64,000 bases of DNA from the human T2T-CHM13v2.0 reference genome, Homo sapiens. Within the stretch, counting starts at the first letter, position 1. Every line of letters starts with the position of its first letter. The notes beneath the pieces are model-generated. The model saw nothing but the letters and a program-made list of their open reading frames with translations. It made no database searches and was not told the DNA's origin. The position numbers and the translations under genes are program-made. Shown piece after piece: positions 33,868 to 38,490 of this stretch. The stretch lies in NCBI RefSeq assembly GCF_009914755.1, contig NC_060927.1, one strand, 5' to 3'.

Positions 33868-36669
33868 TTAAACAAAGAATATAAAAGAGAGTATATGAAC
33901 AGTATCCAAATAAATAATCGTTGAAATTTTTCCAGACTAACTGAAGTCACAGATGGAAGGTCTGAGATGCAAGAAAAAACTGAGAGTAAAGATGCAGGTA
34001 TGTATGTGGGTAATTCCTTAACAGTTTAAAGGCTAAATCCACCAAAATTACTAGAACACAATCCCTGACCAGACTAGCTTTTTCTTTTTTTTTTTTCCTA
34101 ACTAAGAATAAGGGCTAGATGTACTATAAATAAACAAAATAAGGACAAGAGGACTTAGTAAAGAAAGTTATTGGAGACCAAATTTCAAGAGCTAAAGATT
34201 CCCTCTCCCAGTAGAAATATACTGTCCCTACTGCCAAAACTGTGTTTAGTTTATTAAATTAGGGTGAATTTTTAATGTGCAACTTTATGAAATAAAAAAA
34301 TTACAGTCTTATATTAGCTAAGGCTGAATATATTTTCAATTATATTGAAACAAACAGGATTCCAATTTCCACTAACTGTCGTCTTCAATGTGAGGTGAGC
34401 TATATAATACTTTGGCATACTCTACCTGTCAAATCTTCCAAGCACAACAGATTCTTTTACTTTTAAATGCAGTTCATTTAAAAGACCCTGCTAAGACTTC
34501 CAGAAGAAATCAAATGTAAATTCAAACTTACTTAGTAAAATTATGAAATTATGGCATTACACCTCCTAAAACAGAATCATAACTAATAGTTATATAAATG
34601 GTTGTTTTTTCAAATATTTAACAGATACCTAATTGAAGCATCACAATAACCTCATGGAATCCTGGCTTTATAGAACAGATATAATAATGGGTAAAAGCTT
34701 AGAATGTAAAAGAACATAGTGAACGGCATTAAAAAATACACAGAAAAGGATACATAAATTGAATGTAACAATGTAAAGAGAAAAAGATGTCCAAAATCTA
34801 ATCAACAGCTGCTTCTTAGCAGCATTCCCCATCAAATGAAATTGAAAGGACAATCATTAGGCATACATAGTAGATAAACTAAACGAAATGATGCATTAAC
34901 TTATTTGATTCATTGTCATCAATATGAACGAGATTGATGAACAAAATTTAGCGAGATTACTTTTTAAATTTAATTGCTTATTGAGCCTTAATAAGACTCA
35001 TATGGTACTACCTCCAAGGGTAGAAAAAAAGCTGGCCTGAGTGATTAAAACTTCCATCAGGTATAAATAAGTAAAGGCAGAGTGTGGCAAAAATTGTCAT
35101 CCATACTTAATCATGAACAATTAAAAGTATAAGCCATTCTGAAAAGCTGAGGGGTAAGGTCTTTAAATAAGAAAACTTCTCCAAACTAGACCATAGCTAT
35201 ATTGATTCAAAGTTAATGCCTCAGCAGATACAAAACACCAAACATCTTTACTGAGTGGTTTAGAAAAAAGTTGAATTTAAGCTGGAAATTTATGAAGTTA
35301 AAAAAAAGAAAATGCCTTATTTCAGCCAGACACAATGTTCAGGCTAGAAGAATATGTGGCCTTATCATTTCAAACTTTGGTTGCCCACACCAAATTTAAC
35401 TATCAAACCATTCTGATATAAAGAAAAAGAAAAATATTCCATAGTGCCTTCTGAGTTTTTACTCAATTATAATTACATTTGTACATATGTTTTTTAGCTG
35501 CTTCAAGTCTTTTCTGTGGAGAAAAAAAAAAGGTAGGCTTTAAAAAAAAATCCCTACATATATAGATACATCCATGCATAGAAAATGTTCCCAAAACTAA
35601 CCATTTCACTTGTACTTCCTGATCCCTACTTGAAACATAAATAAGTAGGCAAATTTTTAAGATATATTAAACATTAATATACTTTATAAGTAGATTTTTA
35701 AGTAAAAGCAAACTGCAAATTTTTTTTCAATAAAATCAAGCCACAAAGCCAAAATTCTTTATCATAAGATGTGCAAATGGCTTAAAATTTTAGGGAGTGG
35801 GTGGGAAAGACTAGTAGTTGAACTCTAAATCTGTCAAAAGAGGATGCAAGCTTACTACAGGAAGATTCTAATAACTGAAATCCCTGAATGTTTTAAGATT
35901 AAGATCATAGAACAGGGGATCACAAGCTTTCCCACCTAAACATCCCTAAATAAATGCCACAACAGACAATGACCTCATACATATGAGAGTCTGGGAATAG
36001 AACCCAAAATTGCTATAGTGTCAATTTTCTGCCACATTAAGTATATGATCTTAAAATAATTGTGCTAATTCCTTTTTGACTCTACAATATCTCACTAAAA
36101 ATCATACTTAAAAAGAATGTACCACATTGATATTTGTGGGTTTTTTTGTTTTTTTTTTTTAATTTATTTTTTTATTGATAATTCTTGGGTGTTTCTCACA
36201 GAGGGGGATTTGGCAGGGTCATGGGACAATAGTGGAGGGAAGGTCAGCAGATAAACAAGTGAACAAAGGTCTCTGGTTTTCCTAGGCAGAGGACCCTGCG
36301 GCCTTCCGCAGTGTTTGTGTCCCTGATTACTTGAGATTAGGGATTGGTGATGACTCTTAACGAGCATGCTGCCTTCAAGCATCTGTTTAACAAAGCACAT
36401 CTTGCACCGCCCTTAATCCATTTAACCCTGAGTGGACACAGCACATGTTTCAGAGAGCACAGGGTTGGGGGTAAGGTCACAGATCAACAGGATCCCAAGG
36501 CAGAGGAATTTTTCTTAGTGCAGAACAAAATGAAAAGTCTCCCATGTCTACTTCTTTCTACACAGACACGGCAACCATCCGATTTCTCAATCCCTTCCCC
36601 ACCCTTCCCGCCTTTCTATTCCACAAAGCAGCCATTGTCATCCTGGCCCGTTCTCAATGAGCTGTTGGG

Positions 36670-37905
36670 CACACCTCCCAGACGGGGTGGTGGCCGGGCA
36701 GAGGGGCTCCTCACTTCCCAGTAGGGGCGGCCGGGCAGAGGCGCCCCTCACCTCCCGGACGGGGCGGCTGGCCGGGCGGGGGGCCGACCCCCCCACCTCC
36801 CTCCCGGACGGGGCGGCTGGCCGGGCAGAGGGGCTCCTCACTTCCCAGTAGGGGCGGCCGGGCAGAGGCGCCCCTCACCTCCCAGACGGGGCGGCTGGCC
36901 GGGCGGAGGGCTGACCCCTCCACCTCCCTCCCGGACAGGGCGGCTGGCCGGGCGGGGGGCTGACCCCCCAACCTCCCTCCCGGACGGGGCGGCTGGCCGG
37001 GCAGAGGGGCTCCTCACTTCCCAGTAGGGGCGGCTGGGCAGAGGCGCCCCTCACCTCCCAGACGGGGCGGCTGGCCGGGCGGAGGGCTGACCCCCCCACC
37101 TCCCTCCCGGACGGGGCGGCTGGCCAGGCGGGGGGCTGACCCCCCCACCTCCCTCCCGGACGGCACGGCTGGCCAGGCGGGGGGCTGACCCCCCACCTCC
37201 CTCCCGGACGGGGCGGCTGGCCAGGCGGGGGGCTGACCCCCCCACCTCCCTCCCGGACGGCACGGCTGGCCAGGCGGGGGGCTGACCCCCCCACCTCCCT
37301 CCCGGACGGCACGGCTGGCCAGGCGGGGGGCTGACCCCCCCACCTCCCTCCCGGATGGGGCGGCTGGCCGGGCGGGGGGCTGACCCCCCCCCCACCTCCC
37401 TCCCGGACGGGGTGGCTGCCGGGCGGAGATGCTCCTCACTTCCCAGATGGGGTGGCTGCCGGGCGGAGAGGCTCCTCACTTCTCAGACGGGGCAGCTGTC
37501 GGGCGGAGGGGCTCCTCACTTCTCAGACGGGGTGGTTGCCAGGCGGAGGGTCTCCTCACTTCTCAGACGGGGCGGCCGGGCAGAGACGCTCCTCACCTCC
37601 CAGACGGGGTCTCGGCCGGGCAGAGGCGCTCCTCACATCCCAGATGGGGCGGCGGGGCAGAGGCGCTCCCCACATCTCAGACGATGGGCGGCCGGGCAGA
37701 GACGCTCCTCACTTCCTAGATGTGATGGCGGCTGGGAAGAGGCGCTCCTCACTTCCTAGATGGGATGGCGGCCGGGCGGAGACGCTCCTCACTTTCCAGA
37801 CTGGGCAGCCAGGCAGAGGGGCTCCTCACATCCCAGACGATGGGCGGCCAGGCAGAGACACTCCTCACTTCCCAGACGGGGTGGCGGCCGGGCAGAGGCT
37901 GCAAT
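36670..37905 (-). repeat. SVA VNTR (GC/CpG-rich ~35-50 bp tandem units)
   Basis: Repeated units such as ggggcggctggccgggcggggggctgacccccccacctccctcccggac and ctcctcacttcccagacgggg. Confidence 0.95.
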
Positions 37906-37935
37906 CTCGGCACTTTGGGAGGCCAAGGCAGGCGT

Positions 37936-38002
37936 CTGCTCCTTGCCCTCGGGCCCGCGGGGCCCGTCCGCTCCTCCAGCCGCTGCCTCCCGGGCGGCGC
38001 TC
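37936..38002 (-). pseudogene. MAST2: MAST2 exon 1 3' fragment spliced into the SVA Alu-like domain
   Basis: Minus strand reads APPGRQRLEERTGPAG, then after a 1-nt deletion PEGKEQ, matching the recalled MAST2 N-terminus. It ends GAGCAG and joins ACGCCTGCCTTGGCCTCCCAAAG, the SVA_F1-type junction. Confidence 0.93.
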
Positions 38003-38020
38003 CTCAGCATTTCTTTACTC

Positions 38021-38064
38021 TTTTTTTTTTTTTGAGACGGAGTCTTGCTGTCACCCAGCCTGGA
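38021..38064 (-). mobile_element. Alu 3' end plus A-tail, 5'-transduced inside the SVA insertion
   Basis: Minus strand TCCAGGCTGGGTGACAGCAAGACTCCGTCTC-A13, located inside the SVA TSDs. Confidence 0.88.
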
Positions 38065-38092
38065 CTTACACCATGTTCTTTAAGGTGGGAGC

Positions 38093-38239
38093 CTACTGAT
38101 TTCCCCCGACCCCAGACTGGGCGGCGGCCTCCAGCTTGCCCTCGAAGGTGAAGTCCAGCAAGTCGGGCTTGAGGCAAAGGCTGCAGTTGATGGGGGAGAC
38201 ATCGGCAGGCAGCCGCTCGAAGGGCCTCTTCTCCGGCAT
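38093..38239 (-). CDS. Potential 48-aa chimeric micro-ORF (NPEPPS MPEKRPF...AAAQ + SGVGGNQ*)
   Basis: ATG at 38239-38237 in GCCGCGATGC context; TAG at 38095-38093. No evidence of expression. Confidence 0.2.
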   Translation of the reverse strand: MPEKRPFERLPADVSPINCSLCLKPDLLDFTFEGKLEAAAQSGVGGNQ

Positions 38240-38272
38240 CGCGGCGAGGCCCAGGCTGTGGAGGCGGCGGCC
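38117..38272 (-). pseudogene. NPEPPS: Retrocopied first-exon fragment of an NPEPPS-family gene (puromycin-sensitive aminopeptidase; probably an NPEPPSP1-type paralog)
   Basis: Translates RRLHSLGLAAMPEKRPFERLPADVSPINCSLCLKPDLLDFTFEGKLEAAAQ, matching the recalled NPEPPS N-terminus except INYS>INCS. Homology stops at ...GCCGCCCAG, the expected exon 1 end. Confidence 0.92.
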
Positions 38273-38460
38273 ACCACATTGATATTTGTACTTCTTCACA
38301 TACTCAGCTCTAAAGAGTTGAACTAGAGGGTCTCACCTTTTCTGTTCAAACCAGAACTGTATACCTTTGTGAAAGAGCACATATTTTATATTTGAAGGAA
38401 AGCTAATCTAATAAATTCCTAGGTTTAATCAGTGATTGTCTCCTAGAATCAACTTTACTT

Positions 38461-38490
38461 ACACACACACACACACACGCGCGCGCACAC
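38461..38490. repeat. (AC)n(GC)n microsatellite
   Basis: acacacacacacacacacgcgcgcgcacac. Confidence 0.9.

What the first reader, a model, noticed from the sequence alone, without database searches (positions are those of the whole stretch)
37936..38289. SVA_F1 carrying a captured NPEPPS-family exon: two unrelated genes' first exons in one retrotransposon
Seen: inside the 17-bp TSD, the minus strand reads NPEPPS-like exon (38272-38117, ending AAAQ/CAG) > 52 nt of unrelated DNA > Alu 3' end + A13 > 18-nt spacer > MAST2 exon 1 piece > SVA. Known: SVA_F1 arose by MAST2 exon 1 splicing into an SVA, and some SVA_F1 lineages carry a 5' Alu. Inferred: the parent SVA_F1 lies in sense within an NPEPPS-family intron. 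That host promoter drove a transcript in which exon 1 spliced to a cryptic acceptor just upstream of the SVA, and the transcript was retrotransposed here. This would be a second round of exon and promoter capture on top of MAST2, a potential NPEPPS-MAST2-SVA sub-lineage. I cannot tell whether it is already catalogued.
Basis: partly seen in the sequence, partly recalled or inferred. Interest (0 to 1): 0.9.

Follow-up and report, generated by a model that had tools for sequence, protein, structure and literature searches.

The report
SVA_F1 retrotransposon carrying NPEPPS-paralog exon
A young SVA_F1 jumping element in a TBC1D5 intron carries, in front of its usual MAST2 piece, a scrap of chromosome 12 and a spliced first-exon piece from an NPEPPS gene copy on chromosome 17; this is a real but ordinary case of SVAs trapping and moving exons.

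Summary
A 2,135-bp SVA_F1 lies on the minus strand between exact 17-bp target-site duplications (36121-36137 and 38273-38289). Its 5' end is a stack of four sequences.

1. 155 nt of exon 1 of an NPEPPS paralog: 100% identical to chr17:39.12 Mb and 99% to NPEPPS itself at chr17:48.39 Mb.
2. 50 nt of that gene's intron 1. In the genome it lies about 1.42 kb downstream, across a GT..AG intron with a strong acceptor.
3. 63 nt from chr12:125.05 Mb, made of a variant Alu tail plus 17 nt of flank. This is not a known Alu-bearing SVA_F1 lineage.
4. The last 67 nt of MAST2 exon 1.

Untemplated G bases sit in front of layers 1 and 4.

Best reading: serial insertion, chr12 then chr17 intron 1 then chr3, with exon trapping at the chr17 step. 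Both inferred parents are absent from this genome. They are also absent from the rows I saw of one published set of 543 non-reference SVAs.

No second copy of any junction exists in this genome, so no sub-lineage is seen. Exon capture and stacked 5' transductions by SVA are well documented. The 2009 SVA_F1 catalogues could not be read, so I cannot tell whether this copy is already listed.

The parts
38273..38289 (-). 5' target-site duplication (minus strand ACAAATATCAATGTGGT)
   Evidence: Exact 17-nt direct repeat with 36121-36137 (D6).
38272..38272 (-). Untemplated G between the TSD and the captured exon
   Evidence: Not part of the TSD: the 3' copy is followed by a. Not in chr17 either, which has c at this place. 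[quoted passage not shown]
38117..38271 (-). 3' 155 nt of exon 1 of an NPEPPS paralog, ending at the exon's splice donor
   Evidence: 155/155 identical to C17:39119912-39120066(-) and 154/155 to C17:48393130-48393284(+). The genome continues gtacag. The single diagnostic base (TGC versus TAC) agrees with the 39.12-Mb copy.
38067..38116 (-). 50 nt of NPEPPS-family intron 1, starting directly after a cryptic 3' splice site
   Evidence: 100% identical to C17:39118439-39118491(-) and C17:48394696-48394748(+). It is preceded in the genome by ttttcctactgcag, and the genome goes on tatagtaatg after ...ATGGTGTA.
38004..38066 (-). 5' transduction from chr12: variant Alu 3' end, A13, and 17 nt of unique flank
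   Evidence: Identical to C12:~125054985-125055045(-) except A11 versus A13. The exact 18-mer occurs only in the window. Of 19 other loci with at most 1 mismatch that I examined, only the chr12 one has the same Alu tail directly upstream.
38003..38003 (-). Second untemplated G, between the chr12 flank and MAST2
   Evidence: chr12 has a here. MAST2 and 28 of 29 other SVA_F1 loci examined have c here.
37936..38002 (-). Last 67 nt of MAST2 exon 1 (SVA_F1 hallmark), 5'-shortened
   Evidence: Matches the MAST2 gene exon end at C1:45681203 and many SVA_F1 copies. It has a 1-G deletion shared only with the SVA_F1 at C6:43410265.
36690..37935 (-). SVA Alu-like remnant after the MAST2 splice junction, then the VNTR
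   Evidence: TRF arrays with periods 37-49 over 36674-37899. The junction sequence is the same as in other SVA_F1 copies. Boundaries are approximate.
36138..36689 (-). SINE-R, AATAAA signal and A-rich tail (ends ...ACAAAAAAACCC)
   Evidence: 98% identical over 643 nt to another SVA. Boundaries are approximate.
36121..36137 (-). 3' target-site duplication
   Evidence: D6.

Best explanation
This is one L1-mediated insertion of an SVA_F1 RNA whose 5' end had been extended in three successive rounds.

**Shown**
- The insert is flanked by a 17-bp TSD and ends in a poly(A) tail.
- Its 5' stack reads: G, NPEPPS-paralog exon 1 (155 nt), intron-1 piece (50 nt), chr12 Alu tail plus flank (63 nt), G, MAST2 exon-1 end (67 nt), SVA.
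- The exon 1 / intron-1 join is a spliced GT..AG junction.

**Inferred history**
1. An SVA_F1 RNA that started inside the MAST2 sequence (cap G kept) inserted on chr12 right after ...GAGTAAAGAAATGCTGA.
2. A transcript that began upstream in the neighbouring Alu carried 61 nt of chr12 flank. It inserted in sense orientation into intron 1 of the NPEPPS paralog at chr17:39.12 Mb, right after ...AACATGGTGTA. A TT|AAAG endonuclease-type site lies 15 nt upstream of that point.
3. A transcript from the paralog's own promoter spliced exon 1 to a strong cryptic acceptor 50 nt upstream of that insertion. It ran through the SVA to its poly(A) signal, and its capped RNA was copied into the TBC1D5 intron on chr3.

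Both intermediate parents are missing from this genome, so they are presumably rare or lost alleles.
For: **The insertion itself**
- TSD and tail.

**Origin on chr17 and splicing**
- 5 of 5 candidates were scored. The two chr17 loci each hold both pieces about 1.42 kb apart.
- Donor gt and acceptor ...ttttcctactgcag are present at both loci.
- The paralog is favoured by 155/155 versus 154/155. The diagnostic base gives Cys, whereas the solved NPEPPS protein and the 48.39-Mb locus have Tyr.

**Origin on chr12**
-.

**Signs of separate integration events**
- Untemplated G at 38272 and 38003, the known mark of a cDNA that reached a capped 5' end (PMC3287187 passages).
- The chr17 break lies 15 nt after TT|AAAG. 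A listed endonuclease-type hexamer 7-20 nt upstream occurs at only 5.3-7.2% of positions in four background sequences (502/9421, 544/9421, 520/8921, 4609/63920).
- There is no microhomology at the chr17/chr12 junction.

**Published precedent (PMC12593883, passages, section 7 and supplement passages)**
- 27 'concatenated' transductions.
- Exon 1 of MRPS18A spliced into an SVA with no parent in the reference.
- 'Unrecovered source elements ... likely lost'.
Against: - No parent SVA exists at either chr17 site or at the chr12 site in this genome.
- In the supplement passages of PMC12593883 that I saw, no non-reference SVA is listed on chr17 between about 30.6 and 43.4 Mb or between 44.2 and 58.0 Mb. 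None is listed on chr12 between 124.81 and 125.36 Mb (GRCh38). This assumes the rows are in coordinate order, and I estimated the GRCh38 places of my loci rather than computing them.
- Neither junction motif occurs in that supplement (its sequence cells are cut).
- The model therefore needs two unseen intermediates.
- The chr12 break has only weaker endonuclease-type sites: GT|AAAG with a 13-nt TSD, or TC|AAAA with a 28-nt TSD.
- The source assignment to the paralog rests on one base.
Confidence: 0.6

Rival explanations
1. Template switching. During a single retrotransposition event the L1 reverse transcriptase reached the 5' end of an SVA_F1 RNA. It then jumped to an unrelated chr12 transcript, and from there to a partly spliced NPEPPS-paralog RNA. 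This would make a tripartite chimera without any SVA ever having sat on chr12 or in the chr17 intron.
For: - It explains why no parent is found at chr12 or chr17, either here or in the published non-reference rows I saw.
- Template switching has been proposed for an SVA-CKS1B pseudogene chimera (PMC12593883, passages).
- The extra G at 38003 could be a cap copy made just before a jump.
Against: - It needs two jumps, each landing at an internal, non-polyadenylated point of an intronic or intergenic RNA, with no microhomology at the chr17/chr12 join.
- It does not explain why the splice acceptor that was used lies only 50 nt before the break.
- It does not explain why the break sits 15 nt after a TT|AAAG site.
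Confidence: 0.2
2. Same serial mechanism, but the chr17 parent sat in NPEPPS itself (48.39 Mb), or in a further NPEPPS duplicate present only in other haplotypes of the duplication-rich 17q region, not in the 39.12-Mb copy of this genome.
For: - The 50-nt intron piece is identical at both loci, and the exon differs by one base only.
- A third, 5'-less NPEPPS copy at C17:37.26 Mb shows that the region has duplicated repeatedly.
Against: - The one diagnostic base matches the 39.12-Mb copy (155/155).
- Only two loci in this genome hold exon 1 and the start of intron 1.
Confidence: 0.12
3. Assembly or DNA-level artefact: the stack was made by misassembly or by non-retrotranspositional rearrangement.
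For: None found.
Against: - Perfect TSD, poly(A) tail, uniform orientation and an intron-less splice junction are the marks of one RNA-mediated insertion.
- The flanks are unique and continuous.
Confidence: 0.02

Closest known systems
SVA_F1 (MAST2-SVA) subfamily
   Same: [quoted passage not shown] VNTR, SINE-R, poly(A) and TSD are all present.
   Different: Only 67 nt of MAST2 remain, whereas PMC12593883 (passages) takes more than 320 bp as full length. Three further layers lie upstream.
Exonic 5' transductions of SVA made by splicing: MRPS18A-SVA, LINC02916, UQCRC1 (PMC12593883); chimpanzee pt_SVA_D6 = STK40 exon 1 + SVA, with added exons of 8 other genes (PMC6139936, section 10)
   Same: An upstream first exon of the host gene is spliced and carried along. 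The parent is often missing from the reference. A second gene's exon on top of a first captured exon is already described in chimpanzee.
   Different: Here the acceptor lies in the host intron 50 nt upstream of the inferred SVA, not inside the SVA. The host is a pseudogene-like NPEPPS paralog. I found no paper naming NPEPPS or NPEPPSP1 with SVA.
Concatenated (serial) SVA transductions and the chromosome-10 Alu-flanked SVA_F1 lineage (CH10_SVA_F)
   Same: Flanking sequences from several source loci are stacked, and an Alu fragment sits 5' of MAST2.
   Different: The Alu tail here comes from chr12. It differs in sequence and junction from the three other Alu-bearing SVA_F1 copies found (L009 chr15, L011 chr8, L014 chr19). 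It is a singleton in this genome.
L1 template-switch chimeras (for example SVA-CKS1BP, PMC12593883)
   Same: Several unrelated RNA-derived pieces lie in one orientation inside one TSD.
   Different: The junctions here fall at internal intronic points and next to endonuclease-type sites, which fits serial insertion better.

Membership tests
SVA_F1 | MAST2 exon 1 3' end joined to the SVA Alu-like 3' remnant at the canonical junction | tested here: met
   The window reads ...GGAGCAG then aCGCCTGCCTTGGCCTCCCAAAG, as in the SVA_F1 at C1:46117657. The MAST2 gene itself continues gtaggg.
SVA_F1 | VNTR, SINE-R, poly(A) signal and tail, flanking TSD | tested here: met
SVA_F1 | Full-length MAST2 part (more than 320 bp, criterion of PMC12593883) | tested here: not met
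   Only 67 nt are present. 28 of 29 other loci examined continue further into MAST2. The copy is therefore a 5'-shortened member, not a full-length one.
SVA exon trapping / spliced 5' transduction | The captured piece ends exactly at an exon's GT donor, and the next piece starts exactly after an AG acceptor in the same gene and orientation | tested here: met
   The intron is 1,423 nt at the paralog and 1,414 nt at NPEPPS, as I counted coordinates.
SVA exon trapping / spliced 5' transduction | Source SVA present in sense orientation downstream of the acceptor at the source locus | tested here: not met
   Both chr17 loci are empty at the break. The only SVA nearby is antisense and truncated. Other human haplotypes could not be searched.
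Serial (concatenated) 5' transduction | Each layer maps to a single distinct genomic locus and ends where a former insertion site could be | tested here: met
   The layers map uniquely to chr17 and chr12. The TT|AAAG site is 15 nt before the chr17 break. The chr12 site is weaker.
CH10_SVA_F (chromosome-10 Alu-flanked SVA_F1) | The chromosome-10-derived Alu and flank lie 5' of MAST2 | tested here: not met
   The Alu tail and flank map to chr12 and differ from the Alu-MAST2 junctions of L009, L011 and L014. That L011 is of the chromosome-10 type is my reading from a similar sequence in the PMC12593883 supplement passage.
   The junction pattern with up to 2 mismatches gave 1 hit, the window. The exact 18-mer gave 1 hit. 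The 3' flank gave 1 hit. There were 0 occurrences in the PMC12593883 supplement. This covers one genome and one call set only.

The most novel reading that the evidence does not exclude
The missing chr17 parent, or this chr3 copy, is or was a live source element. It would have founded a still-segregating human sub-lineage of SVA_F1 with a second CpG-rich first exon (NPEPPS paralog) in front of MAST2. That exon would add transcription start activity, as MAST2 exon 1 does.
Probability: 0.07. Interest if true: 0.45.

Novelty: new member of a known kind. Interest (0 to 1): 0.25.

Why it matters
The copy is a compact record of at least three successive SVA_F1 jumps after the MAST2 capture. Each jump left its mark as flank, cap G or splice junction. 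Two source alleles are no longer visible in this genome.

It adds one more gene, an NPEPPS paralog, to the short list of human exons moved by SVA. It shows that an acceptor in the host intron, not only one inside the SVA, can be used.

It sits in sense orientation in a TBC1D5 intron, so it could in principle affect that gene's transcripts. Nothing here shows that it does. It does not change what is known about how SVAs work.

Tried and rejected
**Rejected readings**
- *Parent SVA directly after the 50-nt piece at chr17.* Both loci were read and are empty. The nearby SVA is antisense and 5'-truncated, with its own TSD GACAAAATTCTT.
- *The Alu is that of a known Alu-bearing SVA_F1 lineage.* The three such copies found have different Alus and junctions.
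- *Splicing at the chr17/chr12 and chr12/MAST2 junctions.* There is no GT after ...GTGTA, no AG before AGTCC on chr12, and no AG before GAGCGCC in MAST2.
- *The SVA_F1 at C3:181923283 is the grandparent.* It also starts G+GAGCGCC, but it differs at 3 sites in the first ~110 nt and in VNTR layout.
- *A third NPEPPS copy holds the parent.* The copy at C17:37.26 Mb has peptidase exons, but exon 1 and the start of intron 1 exist only at two loci.
- *Offspring of the chr3 copy.* None was found by junction or by 3' flank.

**Literature searches**
- SVA + NPEPPS: 11 papers, and none of the 10 listed is about retrotransposons.
- NPEPPSP1 + SVA: 0 papers.
- 'puromycin-sensitive aminopeptidase' + SINE-VNTR-Alu: 0 papers.
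- TBC1D5 + SVA_F: none of the 15 listed papers mentions TBC1D5.

**Sources I could not use**
- Damert 2009, Hancks 2009 and Hancks & Kazazian 2010 are not held. Bantysh & Buzdin 2009 was not looked up (no PMC id was listed).
- The paper reader closed before I could see the supplement of PMC10681720. That supplement may name a 'hot' chr17 5'-transducing source mentioned in the Figure 5 legend.

Full report
**1. What is in the sequence**

Read on the minus strand, 38289-36121 is one retrotransposon insertion. An exact 17-nt direct repeat flanks it: ACCACATTGATATTTGT on the + strand, at 36121-36137 and 38273-38289 (family D6). The insert between the repeats is 2,135 bp.

Its 3' two thirds are a normal SVA body:
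- VNTR arrays with periods of 37-49 nt over 36674-37899.
- A SINE-R that is 98% identical over 643 nt to another SVA.
- AATAAA and an A-rich tail.

**2. The 5' stack, layer by layer**

*Layer 1: NPEPPS-paralog exon 1.*
- 38271-38117 (155 nt) is 155/155 identical to C17:39119912-39120066(-) and 154/155 to C17:48393130-48393284(+). All 5 of 5 candidates were scored.
- Its translation matches solved puromycin-sensitive aminopeptidase chains (E 5.6e-21 and 8.4e-21).
- The single difference from the protein, Cys for Tyr, is the base that separates the two chr17 loci. The 48.39-Mb locus has TAC like the protein, while the 39.12-Mb locus and the window have TGC.
- So the donor is most likely the paralog at 39.12 Mb. 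I take this to be the annotated NPEPPS pseudogene, but no tool named it.

*Layer 2: intron-1 piece.*
- 38116-38067 (50 nt) is 100% identical to a stretch of intron 1 at both loci.
- In the genome the exon ends ...GCCGCCCAG followed by gtacag. The 50-nt piece is preceded by ...tttcttttcctactgcag. By my count from the coordinates, the intron is 1,423 nt at the paralog and 1,414 nt at NPEPPS.
- After ...AACATGGTGTA both genomic loci continue tatagtaatg, without any SVA.

*Layer 3: chr12 piece.*
- 38066-38004 is not generic Alu.
- The 18-mer after the A-run occurs exactly only in the window. With one mismatch allowed there are 22 hits genome-wide, against 2 for the reversed control pattern.
- I examined 20 of these 22 hits, which is 19 loci besides the window. 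Only C12:125054984-125055001(-) has, directly upstream, the same unusual Alu end AGTCCAGGCTGGGTGACAGCAAGACTCCGTCTC and an A-run (A11 versus A13).
- chr12 continues aattgcg, with no SVA in this genome.

*Layer 4: MAST2 piece.*
- 38002-37936 is the last 67 nt of MAST2 exon 1. The gene at C1:45681203 ends GGAGCAG followed by gtaggg.
- It is joined to the SVA at the same junction as other SVA_F1 copies.
- Of 29 other SVA_F1 loci examined, 28 continue further into MAST2. One (C3:181923283) starts at the same base.

*The two extra G bases.*
- Single G bases at 38272 and 38003 belong to none of the sources.

**3. Mechanism**

Because 5' transductions are added outward, the order of acquisition was MAST2 first, then chr12, then chr17.

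The simplest history is serial insertion:
1. An SVA_F1 RNA starting within MAST2 inserted on chr12.
2. A transcript starting in the upstream Alu moved it, with 61 nt of flank, into intron 1 of the NPEPPS paralog.
3. A transcript from that gene spliced exon 1 to a strong cryptic acceptor 50 nt upstream of the insertion and ran into the SVA. This capped RNA was then inserted on chr3.

Evidence beyond the map:
- The two cap-type Gs sit exactly at the two places where this model puts RNA 5' ends.
- The chr17 break is 15 nt downstream of TT|AAAG, a common L1 endonuclease site (motif recalled). That is the layout expected if AAAGAACATGGTGTA was the TSD of the lost parent.
- Such a site 7-20 nt upstream is found at only 5.3-7.2% of positions in four background sequences.
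- The chr12 break has weaker candidates only.

What speaks against the model:
- Both parents are absent from this genome.
- The passages I saw of the supplement of PMC12593883 (543 non-reference SVAs) list no insertion near the corresponding GRCh38 regions. I estimated the GRCh38 positions rather than computing them, and I assumed the rows are ordered by coordinate.
- Neither junction motif occurs in that supplement (its sequence cells are cut).

The main rival is template switching of the L1 reverse transcriptase between three RNAs, a mechanism proposed for another SVA chimera in the same paper. It explains the missing parents. It does not explain the position of the acceptor, the endonuclease-type site, or the absence of microhomology.

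I put serial insertion at about 0.6 and template switching at about 0.2.

**4. Is there a lineage?**

No sign of one in this genome:
- The spliced junction, allowing up to 2 mismatches, is unique to the window.
- The chr12/MAST2 18-mer is unique.
- The 3' flank of the chr3 copy is unique, so there are no 3'-transduced offspring.
- A 1-G deletion in the MAST2 piece is shared only with the full-length SVA_F1 at C6:43410265. That copy may be a relative of the original source.

**5. Comparison with what is known**

- Capture of upstream exons by splicing, followed by retrotransposition, is the accepted origin of SVA_F1 itself. It has been described for other genes, including cases with no parent in the reference, such as MRPS18A (PMC12593883: passages, section 7, supplement passages).
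- The same paper reports 27 stacked ('concatenated') transductions and suggests that source elements have been lost.
- In chimpanzee, the STK40-exon SVA subfamily carries additional exons of 8 other genes (PMC6139936, section 10). So two genes' first exons in one SVA is not new in kind.
- Particular to this copy are the host (an NPEPPS paralog), the use of an acceptor in the host intron rather than in the SVA, and the three-layer record.
- I found no paper that links NPEPPS, NPEPPSP1 or TBC1D5 with this SVA.
- The 2009 catalogues of SVA_F1 members are not held, and the paper reader closed before I could see one further supplement. So I cannot say whether this copy is already listed.

**6. Promoter capture**

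- The captured exon piece begins inside exon 1, about 100 nt downstream of an upstream in-frame ATG.
- It is GC-rich: 69% G+C, CpG observed/expected 0.72.
- Nothing tested here shows promoter activity.
- The captured ATG opens only a 48-codon frame that stops in the intron piece.

**7. Verdict**

It is wrong or unproven about the parent's presence, the origin of the Alu, and a sub-lineage. This is a new member of a known kind, of modest interest.

Noticed in passing
L006 4921-5563 (C17:39116420-39117062): A 5'-truncated SVA (end of VNTR plus SINE-R, 98% identical to the window's) lies about 1.4 kb downstream of the cryptic exon in the NPEPPS paralog. It is in antisense orientation and has its own TSD GACAAAATTCTT. 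It is absent from the matching stretch of the true NPEPPS locus.
   Followed up: partly
G000 C17:37262017-37268043: A third NPEPPS-like copy with Peptidase_M1 exons lies at chr17:37.26 Mb. It lacks exon 1 and the start of intron 1, so the family has duplicated repeatedly on chr17.
   Followed up: partly
L013/L059 (C3:181923283): Another SVA_F1 begins at exactly the same MAST2 base, also with an extra G, but differs at 3 sites in the first ~110 nt. This may be a recurrent transcription start inside the MAST2 sequence.
   Followed up: partly
window 36138-36160: The poly(A) tail of the insertion ends in ...ACAAAAAAACCC before the TSD. Three C bases at the very end of a tail are unusual.
   Followed up: no
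window 38455-38490: A short (GC)n/(GT)n microsatellite lies about 170 nt from the insertion, outside the TSD.
   Followed up: no
PMC10681720, Figure 5 legend: The legend mentions a 'hot' SVA source on chr17 with 65 offspring that carry a 5' transduction. I could not see its coordinates, and a link to NPEPPS loci is untested.
   Followed up: no
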